Positions 2,226-6,244 of a stretch of 6,244 nt of DNA are shown piece after piece. Position numbers and translations under genes: made by a program. Position 1 is the first letter of the stretch. Each line of letters opens with the position of its first letter. Origin of the DNA: an archaeon (lineage in GTDB: Archaea; Iainarchaeota; Iainarchaeia; Iainarchaeales; CSSED10-239); NCBI GenBank assembly GCA_037147375.1, contig JBAWVI010000056.1, positions 1 to 6,244 of the forward strand, in the 5' to 3' direction. The notes under the pieces are model-generated. The model was not told the origin of the DNA. It did no database searches and saw only the letters and a list, made by a program, of their open reading frames with translations.

Positions 2226-2347
2226 AAATTACACACTTTTTTATTTTTAATTTTTGGGACTAATAGCATACTTGCTGTAGGCCTCAAAAAACAATCCTAT
2301 TTTTGTTTTTAAAAAAACATATAACACAATTGCTTTGTATTTATATG

Positions 2348-2374
2348 TTAACCAATTTTTTATAAAATGGTTAA
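2348..2374. repeat. Imperfect inverted repeat, TTAACCA(A)TTTT - TTAT - AAAATGGTTAA
   Basis: Read directly: left arm 2348-2359, 4-nt loop 2360-2363, right arm 2364-2374. This gives 11 bp with one bulged A. It is nested inside an 8-bp inverted repeat, GCTTTGTA 2332-2339 / TACAAAGC 2401-2408. Confidence 0.6.
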
Positions 2375-2447
2375 TAATGTACTACTGTTAACATGCAGTG
2401 TACAAAGCTTAAATATTTTCAAATTATATAATAATTGTTAGGAAATA

Positions 2448-2458
2448 TTTATAAAGGG
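2448..2458 (-). promoter_or_regulatory. Candidate archaeal BRE/TATA element (minus strand AAACCCTTTATAAATA)
   Basis: TTTATAAA at 2448-2455 is preceded on the minus strand by CCC and an A-rich stretch. It sits just downstream of the oligo-T tracts that follow the large gene and 220-230 nt upstream of the rpl3 ATG. The 10-nt core CCTTTATAAA recurs upstream of the Gly/Tyr gene at 6095-6104. The core is palindromic, so orientation is not certain. Confidence 0.4.
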
Positions 2459-2486
2459 TTTGGTTTTTTTCTCATAATCTGGGAAG

Positions 2487-2538
2487 AAAAACGTACCAAA
2501 AATATGAATTAGATAAATCCAAGCTCCAATTATAAAAA
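2487..2538 (-). terminator. Cluster of three oligo-T (T5) tracts downstream of the large surface-protein gene
   Basis: Minus-strand T5 runs at 2534-2538, 2498-2502 and 2487-2491, all within about 75 nt of the TAA stop at 2560-2562. Archaeal RNA polymerase terminates at oligo-T tracts. Confidence 0.45.
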
Positions 2539-2559
2539 TAAGTTATCTGCTTCCTTATT

Positions 2560-5500
2560 TTATATATTTTGACGTGAATTGAGCCCAGCTCTTACTCCCT
2601 TTTCAAATTGTCTTCTTCTGTGTCTTCTTATATAATACCCAATTATTAATAAAACTATGATTATTAGAACAATTAAACCTACTGTTCCTGAAACTGTACT
2701 AAAGGTAAAAAATGCTGTTAATCCTTTCCTTTTATTGTCAGCTGCAAAGTAAGTTACAGAATCACTTTCAATTAATTTACCTGATTGCCTATCAATTACA
2801 TTAAAAGCAACTGAATCAGTGTCTTTTAGCTTAGTCTTTGTAACTATCCTATATTCAATTGTTTTATTGCTATCAGCATCTATTGTAAATAACTTTTCTC
2901 CATCAATCACTGTGTTTTCATCTACCTTGAATAAGATTTCAAGGTCCTTTGAAAAAGAACTATTGTTCTTTAATGTTATTTTTAGATTATATGCGTTCTC
3001 AAAATCATTTATAATAATTAAACTTTTACTTGTAACTTCTATATCTGAAAGAATAGGAGTTAAGTCAATTGTAACTTGAGTTTTTGAAACAAGTACATTT
3101 GATTCATATAATTCAAAATAAGCATTATACTTAGTTTTTATTTCGTTTTCTGGAATAACTATCCCAAAGTAAATAGTTTTTGTTTGATTGCTTCCAATAG
3201 TAAATCTATCTTTACTTCTAGTTTGAGAATCAACTAAGTCTATGTTCATTATGCTATCATTTTCATAGATCTTCCAAGTATCTGGAAGTCCAGCAAGCTT
3301 TAGAGTTACGTTCTTTTCTGTATTGTAGGTGTTAAGTATAGATACATTAGTTAAAGATCTGTTATTTATAGGTGTAATCACAGAAGGTGATGATGTAATC
3401 ATTATTTTCTTATCAGATGACGTAGATGAGGTTAATTTAGTAGTGTATATCTTCTCTTGGCATCCATTTAGTTTAATGTTATAAATCACGTATGTTGGAT
3501 TATTAAAATTACTTAAGGTTAAGGCTCTTGTAAAATCATCATATCCATCAAGATAGATTACTGATGGATCAACAACAGCACCATAAGCAGACATGCTTAT
3601 TGTTCCACCCTTTAGAGATTGGTTATTAAAAGTTAAATATAAGGATTCTCTTGCATTTGCTATGTTTTGAGTTGCTGGATAATCTATTTCAAAATCACAA
3701 GCTCCTGCTTGGAAATTAATATTATCTTTAGTTGTAATTGTTCCTAGTGTTGTTTTTGTATACTCACAAGTATCTCCATTTACAAACTTACCTTTAACTT
3801 GAAGATTTGCAGAACCATCTCCTGTTACTCCAACTCTTATATCTTTAATTGAATTTGGTTTAATTATTGTTGCTTTATCAATAACATTTACGTTAAGTCC
3901 ATTCTTGTTTAAAACAATTACATCATTCATTCCAAATTCTTTATTTGTATTGTTTTGGATTGTTATGCTGTTTTCTCCTTGAACTACTTTTTTATCTTGA
4001 ACTATGATGTTTGAACAAGTGTCTGTTGAATCAAGAACGTTTATTGTAAAATAAGATTTTATATCTGAATAAGTACAACTAATTCCATTATCAAATCTTC
4101 CAAGAACTGAAACACTACCTCTTGAAGAGGTTGTTGCGTTTATTAAGAATGTTTTAAGATTAAAATTTAGAGATGTTTGTGAATTAGCATTGATTGCATA
4201 ATTCATTGTGTTCTTTACAATATCTGCAAATTGAGAGTTATCAGAAATACTAACTTCATTAATATTGAATTTATTATTTGATTTGTTTGAGATATAAAAT
4301 CCATTTGCATTTGTGTAATCTTTACTTGTATTTTCTTTTTGAGAAATGTTTGAGGTGTATATTTTAATATTTGAACATTCGCTAGATGTGTTATTATTAG
4401 AATTATCATTTATTCTTACAGGGAGATTAACTGTTTTCTTACAGTGCTTATCTTCATGTCCTGATCTTTCCATATATCCATTAATTGTAAGAGCTACATC
4501 TTCAGTAAGATAATTATCAACTTCTTCGGTTTCTAGTCTTACTTTTATTTTACCTGTACTATCTCTATGAACTGATGAAGGTTCATATGTAACGTCTGCG
4601 CTTATGTGATCAGTATCTTTAATGCTTGTGCTTTCAATAACATAATCATAATCATTAGAATTGTTTTCGATTTCAATTTCTTTTGTTTGTGTATCATTTT
4701 CATTCATAGTTATACTTGTATTATTAAATGAAATATCAGAACAATCAGCATTACTTGTGTTATCTTGATCTTCTATATGATAATAAACTGTATATTGCTT
4801 TGTGCAAGTAAGAGTATCATATCTTGCAGCAACAGTTACATCAAATGAACCTGTAAAATCAGAATCAACAGTGCTTGCAGTCATGTCTATGTTTGCAGAT
4901 CTAGTTCCATAACTTCCTATTGTGTATGGATAATCAATATTATCTATATCTAAATTCTCTGGGTTTGTTGTAGTTACTGAAGTTACAGTTAATTCTTCAT
5001 TAACTGTATTAATCATATATAAATAATAATTAGTAGAATCATCTTCTTGTAAATAAATATCTCCTTGACCAGATAAATAGAAATCATCACAAGTTATAGT
5101 TGTTGGGTTTGTGTTTCCGTTTCCATTATTATTCCCGTTTCCTGGAGTTGTTCCTGAACTATAAACATATGCAACATCATTTGCAAGCGGATTACCAGAA
5201 AGGTCTACAACATTTAATTCTATCTTATATCCTAAATAATCTGCATCAAAATAAAATAAGTTATTATAAACATAGTTGTATGGGTTTGCAGAATAAAGAT
5301 ATACTGGGCTTGTTGGAACTGACATAACTTGAGTCATATAACCAGCTGGACTTATTCCATAGATTACTGGAGAAATATATACTTGTTGATTGCCAGAAAA
5401 ACCATATCCAGTTAATTGATAAGAAAAATCTACATTATCAAAATAGTTTGCATATTGTACATTTAAAAACGGAGTATATGAATCACTTCTTACATATGCA

Positions 5501-5592
5501 TAATCTACATCAACATAGTAAGCTTGTACACTCCCAATAATAAATATCATTGCTATAGCAATAAAACCAAATAGTATATTTTTCTTAATCAT
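2560..5592 (-). CDS. Large (1010 aa) secreted, C-terminally membrane-anchored multi-domain cell-surface protein; putative S-layer/adhesin-like glycoprotein of unassigned family
   Basis: Uninterrupted 3-kb ORF. It has a Sec-type signal peptide (MIKKNILFGFIAIAMIFIIGSVQA/YY) and an Asn/Ser/Thr-rich ectodomain with about 21 N-x-S/T sequons (hand count). It contains 10 Cys in five regularly spaced pairs. A hydrophobic C-terminal helix (VGLIVLIIIVLLIIGYYI) is followed by the tail RRHRRRQFEKG... A weak AGGA lies 7 nt upstream of the ATG. Confidence 0.88.
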   Translation of the reverse strand: MIKKNILFGFIAIAMIFIIGSVQAYYVDVDYAYVRSDSYTPFLNVQYANYFDNVDFSYQLTGYGFSGNQQVYISPVIYGISPAGYMTQVMSVPTSPVYLYSANPYNYVYNNLFYFDADYLGYKIELNVVDLSGNPLANDVAYVYSSGTTPGNGNNNGNGNTNPTTITCDDFYLSGQGDIYLQEDDSTNYYLYMINTVNEELTVTSVTTTNPENLDIDNIDYPYTIGSYGTRSANIDMTASTVDSDFTGSFDVTVAARYDTLTCTKQYTVYYHIEDQDNTSNADCSDISFNNTSITMNENDTQTKEIEIENNSNDYDYVIESTSIKDTDHISADVTYEPSSVHRDSTGKIKVRLETEEVDNYLTEDVALTINGYMERSGHEDKHCKKTVNLPVRINDNSNNNTSSECSNIKIYTSNISQKENTSKDYTNANGFYISNKSNNKFNINEVSISDNSQFADIVKNTMNYAINANSQTSLNFNLKTFLINATTSSRGSVSVLGRFDNGISCTYSDIKSYFTINVLDSTDTCSNIIVQDKKVVQGENSITIQNNTNKEFGMNDVIVLNKNGLNVNVIDKATIIKPNSIKDIRVGVTGDGSANLQVKGKFVNGDTCEYTKTTLGTITTKDNINFQAGACDFEIDYPATQNIANARESLYLTFNNQSLKGGTISMSAYGAVVDPSVIYLDGYDDFTRALTLSNFNNPTYVIYNIKLNGCQEKIYTTKLTSSTSSDKKIMITSSPSVITPINNRSLTNVSILNTYNTEKNVTLKLAGLPDTWKIYENDSIMNIDLVDSQTRSKDRFTIGSNQTKTIYFGIVIPENEIKTKYNAYFELYESNVLVSKTQVTIDLTPILSDIEVTSKSLIIINDFENAYNLKITLKNNSSFSKDLEILFKVDENTVIDGEKLFTIDADSNKTIEYRIVTKTKLKDTDSVAFNVIDRQSGKLIESDSVTYFAADNKRKGLTAFFTFSTVSGTVGLIVLIIIVLLIIGYYIRRHRRRQFEKGVRAGLNSRQNI
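2629..2697 (-). other. C-terminal transmembrane anchor (residues about 966-988), followed by a 22-aa polybasic cytoplasmic tail (2563-2628)
   Basis: TVSGTVGLIVLIIIVLLIIGYYI is followed by RRHRRRQFEKGVRAGLNSRQNI. The positive-inside rule places the tail in the cytoplasm and the rest of the protein outside. Confidence 0.8.
2743..3420 (-). other. Two Cys-free membrane-proximal beta-rich domains (residues about 725-845 and 846-950), CARDB/NEW3-like
   Basis: The pattern NVSILNTYNTEKNVTLKLAGLPDTWKI ... FTIGSNQTKTIYFGIVIP resembles the n.G...v.l...lP.gW... signature of CARDB/NEW3-type archaeal surface domains. The second unit (YNLKITLKNNSSFSKDLEILFKV...FTIDADSNKTIEYRIV) has the same alternating-strand layout. 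This rests on pattern memory, not a search. Confidence 0.45.
3460..5091 (-). repeat. Five tandem, divergent protein modules, each bracketed by one Cys pair
   Basis: The only Cys residues are at 168/263, 284/384, 406/506, 526/609 and 632/711. Intra-pair spacings are 95, 100, 100, 83 and 79 residues, and inter-pair linkers are 20-23 residues. DNA spans are 4804-5091, 4441-4743, 4075-4377, 3766-4017 and 3460-3699. I checked the Cys168 codon: aca at 5089-5091 is TGT on the minus strand. Confidence 0.8.
5098..5148 (-). repeat. Gly/Asn low-complexity hinge (TPGNGNNNGNGNTNPTT) encoded by reiterated GGAAAC units
   Basis: The minus strand reads CCA GGA AAC GGG AAT AAT AAT GGA AAC GGA AAC ACA AAC CCA ACA. 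It separates the Tyr-rich head from the first Cys-bracketed module. Confidence 0.7.
5149..5520 (-). other. Tyr-rich N-terminal (membrane-distal) head domain, residues 25-148
   Basis: Hand count gives 22 Tyr in 124 residues. Example segments are YYVDVDYAYV, NPYNYVYNNLFYFDADYLGY and VAYVYSS. There is no Cys. Confidence 0.6.
5521..5592 (-). other. Signal peptide of the large surface protein (residues 1-24)
   Basis: KK n-region, hydrophobic core FGFIAIAMIFII, and a small-x-small motif (V-Q-A) before YY. Confidence 0.75.
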
Positions 5593-5616
5593 ATTAAATT
5601 CCTTTTTTTAAAATAT

Positions 5617-5647
5617 AAAAAATTAGATAAGATAAATTTATCTTATC
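5617..5647 (-). terminator. Perfect 22-bp palindrome (GATAAGATAAATTTATCTTATC, 5626-5647) followed on the minus strand by TAA and a T6 tract (5617-5622); terminator/attenuator-like or an operator
   Basis: Read directly; the reverse complement is identical. It straddles the TAA stop (5638-5640) of the Gly/Tyr gene. The T6 tract overlaps a TATA-like TTTTATAT (5613-5620) centred about 25 nt upstream of the large-gene ATG, so its role is ambiguous. Confidence 0.4.
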
Positions 5648-6042
5648 CAACTAAAAGATAAATTTGTTGTTGCATCTGAATAACTTACTGAATTGTATCC
5701 GTAACCATATCCTGAACCGTAATATCCAGTCCCATAATATCCTGTTCCGTAGTAGTTATCATATCCTGAATAATAGTTATTGTATCCATTGTAATAAGTT
5801 GGATAAACTGTTGCATAAGTTGGAACATAATTGTATGTTGTGTATGTTGGATAACCATAACCAATCATTCCTGTGTAAGGGTTAATGTACCCACCGTATG
5901 CATAACCACCATATGCTGGATAACCATATCCAACGTATGAATAGGAGATATCTGTTACATCAAAATCCTCTGCACTAACACCTATACCTAAAAATAAAAG
6001 TGATGCAAGGACTACAGAAATTAAAATTATTTTAGAGTTCAT
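5638..6042 (-). CDS. Small (134 aa) secreted Gly/Tyr-rich low-complexity protein, unassigned family
   Basis: It has a Sec-type signal peptide (MNSKIILISVVLASLLFLGIGVSA/ED). The mature 110 aa contain 32 Tyr and about 19 Gly (hand count) in G-Y-G, Y-P-T-Y and G-T-G-Y-Y motifs. It has the strongest ribosome-binding site in the window (GGAGG, 9-nt spacer) and a BRE/TATA-like element about 55 nt upstream. It is co-oriented with the large surface-protein gene, 45 nt upstream of it. Confidence 0.8.
   Translation of the reverse strand: MNSKIILISVVLASLLFLGIGVSAEDFDVTDISYSYVGYGYPAYGGYAYGGYINPYTGMIGYGYPTYTTYNYVPTYATVYPTYYNGYNNYYSGYDNYYGTGYYGTGYYGSGYGYGYNSVSYSDATTNLSFSWIR
5695..5754 (-). repeat. Degenerate tandem 15-nt (5-codon) repeats encoding YYGTG-YYGTG-YYGSG-YGYGY
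   Basis: Residues 97-116. Codons were checked by hand, for example GGA ACA GGA TAT TAT / GGG ACT GGA TAT TAC. The repeats are imperfect at the DNA level. Confidence 0.75.
5971..6042 (-). other. Signal peptide of the Gly/Tyr-rich protein (residues 1-24)
   Basis: Lys at position 4, hydrophobic core IILISVVLASLLFLGIG, and V-S-A before the acidic EDFD. Confidence 0.75.
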
Positions 6043-6051
6043 AAATCATTT

Positions 6052-6056
6052 CCTCC
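6052..6056 (-). promoter_or_regulatory. Strong Shine-Dalgarno site (GGAGG) for the Gly/Tyr-rich gene
   Basis: The minus strand reads AAAGGAGGAAATGATTTATG, with a 9-nt spacer to the ATG at 6042. Confidence 0.75.
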
Positions 6057-6094
6057 TTTAAGCTTGTTTAATATATATTTAATTAAACAAATAG

Positions 6095-6104
6095 TTTATA
6101 AAGG
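6095..6104 (-). promoter_or_regulatory. Candidate archaeal BRE/TATA element (minus strand AAAAACCTTTATAAAC) for the Gly/Tyr gene
   Basis: The TTTATAAA core lies 53-60 nt upstream of the ATG. That predicts a transcription start near 6072 and a leader of about 30 nt containing the SD. The same 10-nt core occurs at 2448-2457. Confidence 0.5.
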
Positions 6105-6212
6105 TTTTTAATTCCTTAAAGTTACATAATTAAGCTAATATATAATATAGAGAGATAAACTTTAAAACTAAACTGATTACATATATTATAACTATTTAAA
6201 GGAAAAATAAAT

Positions 6213-6244
6213 ATGGTTGAAGAACAAACTGGATCTATTCAAGA
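6213..6244 (+). CDS. Start of an unidentified plus-strand ORF (MVEEQTGSIQ...), running off the right edge
   Basis: This is the first ATG after an in-frame TAA at 6189-6191. GGA lies 9 nt upstream, and TATATTATA (6182-6190) is centred about 27 nt upstream, so the mRNA could be leaderless. It is divergent from the Gly/Tyr gene. Only 10 codons are visible, so no product can be assigned. Confidence 0.3.
   Translation, partial: MVEEQTGSIQ

What the first reader, a model, noticed from the sequence alone, without database searches (positions are those of the whole stretch)
2560..6042. Uncharacterised two-gene envelope cassette: secreted Gly/Tyr protein plus a membrane-anchored stalk protein with a Tyr-rich distal head
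Two co-oriented genes 45 nt apart both encode Sec-exported proteins, and I recognise neither as a characterised family. The upstream gene has the best expression signals in the window (GGAGG SD and a BRE/TATA-like core). Its product is a 110-aa mature polypeptide made largely of Tyr and Gly. The downstream 1010-aa protein is anchored by its C-terminus, so its N-terminal domain is the part farthest from the cell. That domain is also unusually Tyr-rich (22 of 124 residues by hand count) and shares short motif types with the small protein (NPY, YNYV, GYG). My inference is that the two products work together. The small protein could be a coat, cement or cap that assembles on or is displayed by the Tyr-rich head. 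The head sits on a stalk of seven beta-rich domains, giving either an S-layer-plus-matrix or a cell-cell/host attachment device. Aromatic ladders, dityrosine cross-linking or Tyr-carbohydrate stacking are all plausible chemistries. I do not know of a described archaeal system with this architecture.
Basis: partly seen in the sequence, partly recalled or inferred. Interest (0 to 1): 0.8.

Follow-up and report, generated by a model that had tools for sequence, protein, structure and literature searches.

The report
Archaeal surface stalk protein with Tyr-rich partner
An uncultured tiny archaeon (DPANN, Iainarchaeota-like) encodes, just before its main ribosomal-protein operon, a long membrane-anchored surface protein made of eight beta-sandwich modules and, always directly before it, a small secreted protein that is one-quarter tyrosine; the two are inherited together and probably form part of the cell envelope, but neither has been studied experimentally.

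Summary
Two co-oriented minus-strand genes lie 45 nt apart: a 134-aa secreted Gly/Tyr protein (29% Tyr when mature) and a 1010-aa protein with a signal peptide, a Tyr-rich beta-sandwich head, seven Ig-like modules and a C-terminal TM helix plus basic cluster. Neither matches a curated family.

The pairing is supported. In 30 loci (16 lineages) the small gene always sits 24-70 nt upstream of the large one. It is under purifying selection (dN/dS 0.06-0.21) and follows a BRE/TATA + SD promoter conserved in all 16 lineages.

Three parts of the interpretation need correcting:
- The "shared motifs" between the small protein and the head are at chance level.
- A natural headless variant (L024) keeps the small gene, and a distant lineage (L026) has an analogous 35%-Tyr partner. 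So the small protein goes with the stalk protein or the envelope, not the head.
- A conserved archaeosortase gene lies ~1 kb upstream, just outside the window, and the large protein has a conserved motif + TM + basic signal. The C-terminal "anchor" may therefore be cleaved and replaced by a lipid.

The stalk and anchor belong to a ~180-cluster, Iainarchaeota-restricted superfamily whose members sit upstream of L3 across the phylum. S-layer versus attachment remains unresolved. Verdict: a new variant of a known kind, of moderate interest.

The parts
6085..6114 (-). Archaeal promoter of the cassette: BRE-like purine run (6109-6103), TATA box TTTATAAA (6102-6095) and the conserved downstream CTATTTG
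   Evidence: Sequence read. The block AAA.AC.TTTA[TA]AAAC.ATTTG is conserved upstream of the small gene in all 16 lineage representatives.
6052..6056 (-). Shine-Dalgarno GGAGG, 9 nt upstream of the small gene's ATG
   Evidence: GGAGG/GGGGG/GGTG-type purine blocks occur at the same place in the other lineages.
5638..6042 (-). Small gene: 134-aa precursor. Signal peptide is aa 1-24 (6042-5971). The mature protein is 110 aa, 12.5 kDa, pI 4.05, 29% Tyr and 17% Gly.
   Evidence: The family has 16 lineages. dN/dS is 0.06-0.21. No Pfam, NCBIfam, PHROG or PDB relative.
5932..5964 (-). Conserved N-terminal block of the mature small protein, FDVTDISYSYV (aa 27-37), with an alternating amphipathic beta-strand pattern
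   Evidence: Nearly invariant in alignments A1 and A3 and present in all 16 lineages.
5869..5892 (-). Conserved central block GYINPYTG (aa 51-58), a predicted beta-hairpin turn
   Evidence: G51, Y52, T57 and G58 are invariant. The same GY.NPYT occurs in the distant L026 small ORF and in 0 of 200,000 shuffles. The only sequence precedent is the antibody VH CDR2 hairpin, at non-significant E > 0.1.
5641..5694 (-). Conserved C-terminal block N-x-[IV]-S-Y ... [LV][ST]FSW at the extreme C-terminus (aa 117-134)
   Evidence: W132 is invariant; F130 and S131 are nearly invariant.
5593..5637 (-). 45-nt spacer between the two genes: T-runs after the stop and a weak SD (AAGGAA), with no conserved TATA, consistent with co-transcription
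   Evidence: The spacer is 24-70 nt in all lineages.
2560..5592 (-). Large gene: 1010-aa surface protein with a signal peptide (aa 1-24)
5155..5520 (-). Tyr-rich head (aa 25-146): a 10-strand beta-sandwich with 22 Tyr, 12 of them invariant
   Evidence: Model pLDDT 92.1, pTM 0.83. 36 of 124 positions are invariant. It is among the most conserved regions (0.74). Foldseek finds only generic E-set/Ig-like matches. It occurs only in about 13 representative clusters and never in another architecture.
5101..5154 (-). Disordered Gly/Asn/Thr linker (aa 147-164) between head and stalk
   Evidence: pLDDT below 50; variable in length and sequence.
2740..5100 (-). Stalk of seven Ig-like beta-sandwich modules, D1-D7 (aa 165-951). 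D1-D5 each carry an invariant Cys pair (168/263, 284/384, 406/506, 526/609, 632/711).
   Evidence: The stalk is homologous to about 180 clusters of Iainarchaeota surface proteins. Relatives give weak NPCBM_assoc, FixG_C, DUF1573 and HYDIN-Ig hits.
2707..2724 (-). Conserved juxtamembrane motif G-L-T-A-F-F (aa 957-962), a candidate archaeosortase recognition motif
   Evidence: T959 is invariant; A960 and F961 are nearly invariant, although the neighbouring D7 is the least conserved module. Related [AS]GLF[AG][LF]G or PTAFLF motifs occur in outgroup homologues.
2629..2694 (-). C-terminal hydrophobic transmembrane helix (about aa 967-988)
   Evidence: Hydropathy; helix in the model.
2563..2628 (-). 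Basic cluster RRHRRR and a variable cytoplasmic tail (aa 989-1010)
   Evidence: Tails range from 8 to about 90 aa across lineages.
6213..6244 (+). Start of a divergently transcribed, conserved 127-132-aa cytoplasmic gene (MVEEQTGSIQ...). It lies between the cassette and the archaeosortase gene, which is beyond the window edge.
   Evidence: In L022/L023 (same lineage) the order is S8e, archaeosortase (184 aa), divergent gene, small, large, L3.

Best explanation
The two genes are a co-transcribed cell-envelope module of an uncultured Iainarchaeota-type DPANN archaeon.

Large protein:
- It is this clade's version of a phylum-wide major surface protein whose gene always sits just upstream of the L3-L4-L23 ribosomal operon.
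- It is exported by Sec and consists of eight beta-sandwich modules. Five are probably stapled by a disulfide.
- It projects from the membrane and is held by its C-terminal motif + TM helix + basic cluster.
- Most likely the neighbouring archaeosortase recognises this tripartite signal, removes the helix and leaves a lipid anchor, as in the Haloferax S-layer glycoprotein.
- The Tyr-rich N-terminal module is a clade-specific addition to a modular display stalk.

Small protein:
- It is a secreted, acidic, almost charge-free protein of 12.5 kDa.
- Three short conserved beta-strand or turn motifs (FDVTDISYSYV, GY-x-NPYTG, ...FSW) are separated by variable Tyr-rich spacers.
- It is made from the same strong promoter.
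- It most likely binds the stalk protein, not specifically the head, by beta-strand docking of its conserved motifs. The Tyr-rich loops would then form an aromatic coat or non-covalent matrix within the envelope.

Shown: the anatomy, the co-inheritance, purifying selection, the conserved promoter, homology of the stalk, and the presence of the archaeosortase.

Inferred: co-transcription, disulfides, sortase processing, physical interaction, and an envelope (S-layer-like) role.
For: Anatomy.

Strict pairing:
- The small gene precedes the stalk gene by 24-70 nt in 30 loci and 16 lineages, whether the locus was found through the large protein or through the small one.
- The small ORF has dN/dS 0.06-0.21.
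- The BRE/TATA + SD is conserved in 16 of 16 lineages, and the spacer has no conserved promoter.

The small protein is independent of the head:
- Headless P0039/L024 keeps it.
- L026, with a different N-terminal domain, has a 35%-Tyr secreted ORF with the same GY.NPYT motif.
- Outgroup stalk proteins carry Tyr/Asp-rich linkers within the same chain.

Phylum-wide positional homologue:
- Secreted, C-terminally anchored proteins upstream of L3 in 11 Iainarchaeota genomes match the stalk profile at E 1e-8 to 1e-24, with the same Cys pairs and pre-TM motif.
- The exhaustive search finds only 179 clusters.

Distal modules: the head and D1 are the best conserved and D7 the least. This fits conserved protein-protein contacts better than an arms-race adhesin tip.

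Archaeosortase:
- It passes the TIGR04178 signature at 47.7 bits against a cutoff of 23.
- C90, R132 and H152 are invariant.
- It is present upstream in every locus with enough sequence.
- A distant relative sits next to a 2980-aa surface protein.
- The tripartite definition, and the precedent that a 'TM-anchored' S-layer glycoprotein is really ArtA-processed, come from PMC6098224.

Other support:
- A DsbA-like thioredoxin is displayed on the same stalk in Iainarchaeum AR10. This supports extracytoplasmic disulfide formation.
- DPANN S-layer candidates are about 1000-aa Ig-fold proteins, and none has been determined.
Against: - No expression, localisation or interaction data exist.
- All cassette loci belong to one clade, so synteny is partly inherited by descent.
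- N-glycosylation sequons are not enriched beyond composition (21 observed against 20.9 expected).
- There is no sequence or specific fold match to any known S-layer protein.
- A published survey proposes a different 1039-aa protein (A0A2G9N319) as the Iainarchaeota S-layer protein. I could not retrieve or compare it. If this clade has that protein, the large protein here is not the lattice subunit.
- Against sortase processing: no curated CTERM model matches. Several lineages have 55-90-aa cytoplasmic tails with a conserved terminal motif ([KR]Q[IV]TL.EL[DE]), and outgroup proteins end in PWVEKK. That looks like a retained, functional tail.
- The same stalk also displays enzymes and CBMs, so it may be a general display scaffold rather than a lattice former.
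Confidence: 0.45

Rival explanations
1. One reading: the small Gly/Tyr protein assembles specifically on the Tyr-rich distal head as a cap, coat or cement through Tyr-Tyr chemistry. The head-plus-cap is the functional tip of the device.
For: The head and the small gene are both absent from outgroup Iainarchaeota and both present in nearly all clade members. The head is highly conserved, with 12 invariant Tyr, and lacks sequons in the window protein.
Against: The headless natural variant L024 retains a conserved small gene. L026 has a Tyr-rich partner with a non-homologous N-terminal domain. The shared motifs are at chance level, and no homology is detected. Dityrosine cross-linking needs oxidants that are unlikely in the anoxic habitats typical of such organisms (general knowledge, not tested here).
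Confidence: 0.15
2. Host-attachment device. The large protein is a long adhesin of an ectosymbiotic DPANN cell. Its head binds a host surface ligand (glycan or lipid), and the small Tyr-rich protein is a secreted adhesive or interface matrix.
For: The head's weak fold neighbours include carbohydrate- and lipid-binding E-set domains: Wzt CBD, glycosidase accessory domains and NPC2. Paralogous stalks carry CBM_4_9 heads. The Gly/Asn linker suggests a flexible distal module. DPANN generally depend on hosts.
Against: The distal modules are the most conserved part, the opposite of what is usual for host-recognition tips. The gene is a single-copy positional orthologue next to the ribosomal operon across the phylum, which points to a housekeeping role. 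The fold matches are generic, with TM 0.5-0.7 and E about 1e-4. The head is dispensable in L024.
Confidence: 0.2
3. The two products do not interact. They merely share a strong promoter and chromosomal position. The small protein has an independent extracellular role, for example a self-assembling amyloid-like or hydrogel matrix, or a metal- or mineral-binding coat.
For: Its composition (Tyr/Gly/Asn/Pro, almost no charge) resembles prion-like and low-complexity self-associating sequences (general knowledge). No interaction evidence exists. All cassette loci are from one clade, so linkage may reflect descent.
Against: The adjacency is never broken in 16 lineages whose large proteins have diverged to about 33-36% identity, although the surrounding genes change through DGR insertion, extra ORFs and sortase distance. 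The same arrangement recurs in the far more distant L026, with different flanking genes. The spacers are short and lack a promoter.
Confidence: 0.2

Closest known systems
Haloferax volcanii S-layer glycoprotein (csg/SLG) with archaeosortase ArtA (PGF-CTERM system)
   Same: Sec signal peptide, a chain of Ig-like beta-sandwich modules, an acidic ectodomain, a C-terminal tripartite signal (short motif, hydrophobic helix, basic cluster) and an archaeosortase-family gene in the genome, here adjacent.
   Different: No sequence homology. The motif is GLTAFF-like rather than PGF, and no curated CTERM model matches. The sortase is a minimal 176-186-aa form of no named subfamily. Some lineages have long tails after the signal. 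Sequons are not enriched. csg has no small Tyr-rich partner.
Sulfolobales two-component S-layer SlaA/SlaB
   Same: Two adjacent co-oriented genes for exported envelope proteins. One component is a beta-sandwich stalk with a C-terminal TM helix.
   Different: In Sulfolobales the partner (SlaA) is the large lattice-forming canopy and the stalk protein is the smaller one with a coiled coil. Here the stalk protein is the large one, it has no coiled coil, and the partner is a 12.5-kDa low-complexity Tyr-rich polypeptide. No homology.
Proposed DPANN S-layer proteins (Nanobdella MJ1_0160/MJ1_0707, Nanoarchaeum NEQ300, Micrarchaeum SLP_Mh)
   Same: About 1000 aa, a signal peptide, multiple Ig-like folds, and some with a C-terminal TM helix. 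They are inferred to be very highly expressed, and none has been experimentally determined.
   Different: No detectable sequence relationship: those proteins did not appear among the 179 profile hits. No small Tyr-rich partner is described for them.
Tyr-rich structural or adhesive proteins (Bacillus spore-coat CotC/CotU, mussel foot proteins Mfp-3/5, plant Gly-rich wall proteins, prion-like G/Y/N low-complexity domains)
   Same: Small secreted or surface proteins with 20-35% Tyr plus Gly/Asn that act as coats, cements or self-associating matrices. This is a resemblance in composition only, recalled from general knowledge.
   Different: No homology. The protein here lacks the Lys/Arg of the mussel and spore-coat proteins (one basic residue), has three conserved short motifs, and no cross-linking enzyme is evident in the neighbourhood.
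Iainarchaeota stalk-domain superfamily, including the annotated 'DSBA-like thioredoxin protein' of archaeon GW2011_AR10
   Same: A true homologue of modules D2-D7 and of the C-terminal motif and TM. It has the same Cys-pair frame and often the same position upstream of L3.
   Different: Those proteins carry other distal domains (thioredoxin/DsbA, CBM_4_9, none) and lack both the Tyr-rich head and, except for L026, a Tyr-rich small partner gene.

Membership tests
Archaeosortase substrate (C-terminal tripartite sorting signal, PGF-CTERM-like) | Short conserved motif immediately N-terminal of the hydrophobic domain | tested here: met
   G-L-T-A-F-F (aa 957-962) is conserved: T959 is invariant, and A960 and F961 are at least 90% conserved. 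The adjacent D7 is the least conserved module. Related motifs occur in outgroup homologues.
Archaeosortase substrate (C-terminal tripartite sorting signal, PGF-CTERM-like) | Hydrophobic helix followed by a cluster of basic residues | tested here: met
   Hydropathy peak at about 964-986, then RRHRRR. All family members have it.
Archaeosortase substrate (C-terminal tripartite sorting signal, PGF-CTERM-like) | Signal lies at the extreme C-terminus | tested here: inconclusive
   It holds in some lineages (L021 and L032 end 8 aa after the helix). The window protein has 16 more residues, and others have 55-90 aa with a conserved terminal motif. ArtA can process a non-terminal signal, so this is not a refutation.
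Archaeosortase substrate (C-terminal tripartite sorting signal, PGF-CTERM-like) | Match to a curated CTERM sorting-domain model (PGF-, PEF-, VPXXXP-CTERM and others) | tested here: not met
   The NCBIfam scan of the whole protein returned no family at E <= 1.
Archaeosortase substrate (C-terminal tripartite sorting signal, PGF-CTERM-like) | Cognate archaeosortase encoded in the same genome | tested here: met
   A 184-aa exosortase/archaeosortase family gene lies about 0.35-0.9 kb upstream in the window's own lineage (L022/L023). It is also present in every cassette locus with enough upstream sequence. It scores 47.7 bits on TIGR04178 against a cutoff of 23.
Archaeosortase substrate (C-terminal tripartite sorting signal, PGF-CTERM-like) | C-terminal peptide removed and lipid attached in vivo | not testable with these tools
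   Requires mass spectrometry or lipid labelling of the native protein.
Exosortase/archaeosortase family (the neighbouring gene, outside the window) | Signature domain and conserved catalytic-type Cys, Arg and His | tested here: met
   TIGR04178 is above its cutoff in three lineages. C90, R132 and H152 are invariant in A5. No named subfamily reaches its cutoff: XrtH, XrtX, ArtD, pacearchaeosortase and heimdallarchaeosortase are all below it.
Archaeal S-layer (glyco)protein | Exported protein built of tandem Ig-like or beta-sandwich modules with a membrane anchor | tested here: met
Archaeal S-layer (glyco)protein | Homology to a recognised S-layer family (Pfam S-layer/MSTP-DUF1608, csg, SlaA/B) | tested here: not met
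   No Pfam or NCBIfam hit. No PDB sequence hit. Foldseek returns only generic Ig arrays.
Archaeal S-layer (glyco)protein | Enrichment of N-glycosylation sequons | tested here: not met
   21 sequons in the ectodomain against 20.9 +/- 3.9 expected from composition. Glycosylation itself was not tested.
Archaeal S-layer (glyco)protein | Very high abundance and formation of a 2-D lattice round the cell | not testable with these tools
   There are only indirect hints: the conserved strong promoter and the position next to the ribosomal operon.
SlaA/SlaB-type two-component S-layer | Large lattice subunit without TM, plus a smaller coiled-coil stalk subunit with a C-terminal TM | tested here: not met
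   The partner is a 110-aa low-complexity protein. The stalk is all-beta with no coiled coil.
Tyr-rich cross-linked coat or adhesive proteins (CotC/CotU, Mfp, plant GRP) | Sequence homology, or an associated cross-linking or DOPA-forming enzyme | tested here: not met
   No family or PDB hit for the small protein. No oxidase, peroxidase or tyrosinase gene occurs in any of the roughly 15-kb neighbourhoods. Only the composition is similar.

The most novel reading that the evidence does not exclude
The small protein is the founding member of a new class of archaeal envelope component. It would be a secreted, nearly uncharged polypeptide of 25-35% tyrosine that plugs into an Ig-like stalk protein by beta-strand docking and builds a non-covalent aromatic matrix or adhesive layer. 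Together with an archaeosortase-processed stalk, this would be a previously undescribed two-component envelope or attachment architecture in DPANN archaea. It would be ancient enough to exist either as a separate protein (this clade, L026) or as a linker within the stalk protein itself (other Iainarchaeota).
Probability: 0.2. Interest if true: 0.7.

Novelty: new variant of a known kind. Interest (0 to 1): 0.45.

Why it matters
No DPANN S-layer or envelope protein has been determined experimentally, and these tiny archaea live by surface contact with other cells.

This locus offers a concrete, phylum-wide handle on that problem. It is a surface-protein gene fixed upstream of the L3 ribosomal operon, built from a clade-restricted, Cys-bearing Ig-like module. 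It carries a candidate new archaeosortase signal and a dedicated minimal archaeosortase. In one clade it also has an obligatorily co-inherited tyrosine-rich partner that has no described relative.

If the partner is confirmed as an envelope component, it would add a new material principle (an aromatic low-complexity matrix) to archaeal cell walls. It would also extend archaeosortase-dependent anchoring, which the 2018 review describes only for a subset of Euryarchaeota, to DPANN. If not, the locus is still the best candidate for the major surface protein of this lineage.

Tried and rejected
- Family scans of both proteins and of divergent family members found nothing meaningful: Pfam, NCBIfam and PHROGs.
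- PDB sequence searches gave only a TM-region artefact for the large protein. For the small protein they gave non-significant antibody VH CDR2 matches.
- Foldseek of the whole model returned only generic tandem Ig/ASH/MG arrays at TM about 0.1.
- Foldseek of the head alone, against PDB and viral structures, returned generic E-set sandwiches. I rejected reading the head as a specific lectin or CBM.
- I tested whether the small protein is derived from the head. hhalign aligns only the signal peptides, and k-mer sharing is at chance. Rejected.
- I considered sequon richness as evidence for a glycoprotein. It is at the level expected from composition. Rejected as evidence.
- I tested whether the DGR (bAvd + RT) in L002/L003 diversifies the cassette. 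Its repeat pair lies at 15-136 and 1092-1213, outside both genes. Rejected.
- The first genome-contig scan with the large-protein profile found nothing.
- Locus L025 (reduced-head variant P0044) starts 28 nt upstream of the gene, so its partner gene could not be checked.
- The survey's Iainarchaeota S-layer candidate A0A2G9N319 could not be retrieved. The equal-length P0103 turned out to be a different, DsbA-fused protein.
- Rfam found no RNA family in the window.
- A fused or multimer structure prediction was not attempted.

Full report
**1. Observation**

All genes in the window lie on the minus strand, in this order:
- a 134-aa ORF (6042..5638);
- a 1010-aa ORF (5592..2560);
- ribosomal proteins L3, L4 and L23.

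The spacer between the first two is 45 nt. The mature small protein has 110 aa with 32 Tyr and 19 Gly. Residues 25-148 of the large protein contain 22 Tyr. There is one C-terminal hydrophobic helix followed by RRHRRR, and both N-termini look like Sec signal peptides. Neither protein matches Pfam, NCBIfam or PHROGs, and neither matches any PDB sequence meaningfully.

**2. Structure of the large protein**

An AlphaFold2 model from a 10-sequence family alignment has mean pLDDT 73. It shows:
- a signal helix;
- an all-beta head (25-146);
- a disordered Gly/Asn linker (147-164);
- seven beta-sandwich modules (D1-D7, 165-951);
- a disordered juxtamembrane segment;
- the TM helix.

Modelled alone, the head is a confident 10-strand sandwich (pLDDT 92, pTM 0.83). 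Thirty-six of its 124 positions are invariant, including 12 Tyr. Foldseek finds only generic matches: tandem Ig/ASH/MG arrays for the whole chain and E-set sandwiches for the head.

Ten Cys are invariant. They fall as one pair per module in D1-D5, in a C[SD][DN][IF]...G-x-C frame. I infer that these are intradomain disulfides. N-glycosylation sequons (21) are exactly what composition predicts (20.9 +/- 3.9), so they are not independent evidence for anything.

**3. Is the pair real?**

The large protein has ten full-length relatives at 36-80% identity. An exhaustive profile search of 1.84 billion representatives finds about 13 head-bearing clusters among 179 hits.

Every contig found through the large protein has a 118-144-aa Tyr-rich ORF directly upstream. 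Every contig found independently through the small protein has the large gene directly downstream. In total there are 30 loci and 16 small-protein lineages, with gaps of 24-70 nt and no exceptions.

The small family has three conserved blocks separated by variable Tyr/Pro/Gly/Asn filler:
- FDVTDISYSYV;
- GY[IV]NPYTG;
- N-x-[IV]-S-Y...FSW.

It evolves under purifying selection, with dN/dS 0.06-0.21 at dS up to 1.27. A promoter block AAA.AC.TTTA[TA]AAAC.ATTTG plus a GGAGG-type SD is conserved upstream of the small gene in 16 of 16 lineages. The spacer before the large gene has only T-runs and a weak SD. This fits one transcript, but that was not tested.

**4.

- **(a) Shared motifs.** The shared NPY/YNYV/GYG motifs are at chance: 8 shared 3-mers against 8.5 expected, and 1 shared 4-mer against 1.04. 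Profile comparison aligns only the signal peptides.
- **(b) A headless variant keeps the small gene.** P0039 (875 aa) is a close relative (E = 1e-219) whose signal peptide runs straight into D1. Its locus L024 keeps the sortase, the divergent gene and an intact 121-aa, 25%-Tyr small gene. No head-like sequence exists anywhere on the contig.
- **(c) A distant lineage has an analogous partner.** L026 has a large protein that matches only the stalk and has its own acidic N-terminal domain. Directly upstream it carries a secreted 184-aa ORF with 35% Tyr and the motif GYRNPYT. That motif arose in 0 of 200,000 shuffles. Outgroup stalk proteins also contain Tyr/Asp-rich linkers between their own modules. 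Tyr-rich sequence is therefore an old companion of the stalk, and the small protein is not head-specific.
- **(d) An archaeosortase lies beside the cassette.** A 176-186-aa exosortase/archaeosortase family gene scores 47.7 bits on TIGR04178 against a cutoff of 23, fits no named subfamily, and has invariant Cys, Arg and His. It lies 0.35-1.6 kb upstream in every cassette locus that extends far enough, including the window's own lineage L022/L023. It falls just beyond the window edge.

The large protein's C-terminus has the tripartite shape that defines archaeosortase substrates: a conserved GLTAFF motif, a hydrophobic helix and a basic cluster. The Haloferax S-layer glycoprotein was likewise long thought to be TM-anchored before ArtA processing was shown.

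There are caveats. No curated CTERM model matches. Some lineages have long tails with a conserved end motif, although ArtA can process a non-terminal signal.

**5. Wider context**

The window's L3 has a 90% match in one GTDB MAG and at most 49% identity otherwise. All the other matches are Iainarchaeota/Diapherotrites/Forterrea MAGs. NCBI names the MAG only "archaeon".

In 11 of those outgroup genomes the gene directly upstream of L3 is a secreted 245-650-aa protein. Each has the same Cys-pair frame, a [AS]GLF[AG][LF]G motif, a TM helix and a short tail. All are significantly homologous to the stalk (E = 1e-8 to 1e-24). They lack the head, the small gene and, within 10 kb, the sortase.

The same stalk modules also carry a DsbA-like thioredoxin domain (archaeon GW2011_AR10) or CBM_4_9 domains in paralogues. 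The stalk and anchor are therefore an ancestral, modular surface-display scaffold. One copy is fixed beside the ribosomal operon, and the head and small gene are later additions.

The head and D1 are the best conserved parts (0.74), and D7 and the tail the worst.

**6. Interpretation**

The best-supported reading is a co-expressed envelope module. It comprises a long, probably disulfide-stapled Ig-like stalk protein anchored at its C-terminus, possibly by archaeosortase-mediated lipidation, and a secreted Tyr-rich accessory protein that partners with the stalk protein or the envelope rather than with the head. The alternating hydrophobic pattern of the conserved terminal blocks, and the NP-x-TG turn, suggest beta-strand docking. 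That step is inference only.

I cannot decide between an S-layer-like structural role and a host-attachment role:
- Positional conservation, single copy, a strong conserved promoter and conserved distal modules favour a housekeeping envelope role.
- The flexible linker, the E-set head and the CBM-bearing paralogues keep adhesion alive.
- A published survey lists a different Iainarchaeota S-layer candidate that I could not compare.

**7. Novelty**

The large protein is a new, uncharacterised member of a known kind: archaeal Ig-like surface proteins with a C-terminal sorting or anchor signal. The strictly co-inherited, 25-35%-Tyr secreted partner has no described counterpart in the literature searched. 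The sortase-plus-substrate pairing in DPANN is, as far as those searches show, undescribed.

Overall this is a new variant of a known kind, of moderate interest.

Noticed in passing
window 6213-6244 (+), continuing beyond the window; L022/L023:5460-5858, L001:5006-5398, L002:5071-5454: A divergently transcribed 127-132-aa gene is conserved in every cassette locus between the archaeosortase and the small gene. It has no signal peptide and is rich in heptad-like Leu/Ile/Lys (DIKALQSSILVL..HNEKILGRNILILNKKI..NPLEYTTVEQVKK). It has no Pfam, NCBIfam or PHROG hit. Its function is unknown, and it could be a cytoplasmic partner or regulator.
   Followed up: partly
L022:4704-5258 (same lineage as the window, about 0.35 kb beyond its edge); L001:4468-4998; L002:3448-4008: A minimal (176-186 aa) exosortase/archaeosortase family gene sits between ribosomal protein S8e and the cassette. 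It passes TIGR04178 but no named subfamily model, so it is likely a new archaeosortase subfamily of Iainarchaeota. About 47 close clusters exist, some annotated generically by NCBI. A distant relative (P0251) sits directly upstream of a 2980-aa surface protein (L045).
   Followed up: partly
L002:314-2468 (also L003, L042): A diversity-generating retroelement (accessory bAvd + reverse transcriptase) is inserted upstream of CGI-121/S8e in one lineage. Its 122-nt repeat pair is at 1092-1213 (template) and 15-136 (variable region, in the 3' end of an upstream ORF). It does not target the cassette genes.
   Followed up: yes
P0103/P0180 (archaeon GW2011_AR10), P0093, P0064: The same Cys-bearing stalk modules carry other distal domains in paralogues: a DsbA-like thioredoxin domain (Thioredoxin_4, E = 7e-22) or CBM_4_9 carbohydrate-binding domains. 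So the stalk is a general display scaffold. A surface-displayed DsbA would fit disulfide formation in these modules.
   Followed up: partly
L012:7803-9743, L016:1311-3107, L018:7570-9285 (proteins upstream of L3 in other Iainarchaeota): Outgroup stalk proteins contain short Tyr/Asp-rich interdomain linkers (YYDDYYYNSTSS, DNYDDTYYDDYYDSY). They end in a conserved cytoplasmic motif ...[QE]PW[VE][EK]KK. Within the cassette clade, one sublineage has 55-90-aa tails ending [KR]Q[IV]TL.EL[DE]. These conserved tail ends suggest a cytoplasmic interaction and sit awkwardly with sortase cleavage.
   Followed up: no
L026:1059-1613: A secreted 184-aa ORF with 35% Tyr and 13% Asp lies directly upstream of a distant, acidic stalk-family protein, with RtcB upstream of it rather than a sortase. 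It shares only the GY.NPYT motif with the window's small protein. That large protein ends in a textbook PTAFLFLG + TM + RRK signal.
   Followed up: partly
small protein aa 51-59 (window 5866-5892): The conserved central motif GYINPYTGM/Y is identical to the CDR-H2 hairpin of many mouse antibody VH domains, which produced the only (non-significant, E > 0.1) PDB matches. This is coincidental, but it is a structural precedent for a beta-hairpin turn.
   Followed up: no
L002:4387-4449 and 5081-5143: A 63-nt direct repeat (89% identical) shows a partial duplication of the 3' end of the divergent gene in the lineage that also has extra ORFs (75 and 198 aa) inserted between the sortase and the cassette.
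   Followed up: no
L021:7338-8474; L023:2654-3859: Apparent gene fusions in gene calls of related contigs: L2-C + S19 as one 378-aa product, and DUF5680 + ERCC4 as one 401-aa product. These genes are separate in sister contigs. They may be assembly or frameshift artefacts.
   Followed up: no
window 2226-2559: A 334-nt AT-rich spacer separates the large gene from L3 (about 270-370 nt in all related loci). It has no Rfam hit. It presumably holds the terminator of the cassette and the promoter of the ribosomal operon, but it was not analysed.
   Followed up: no
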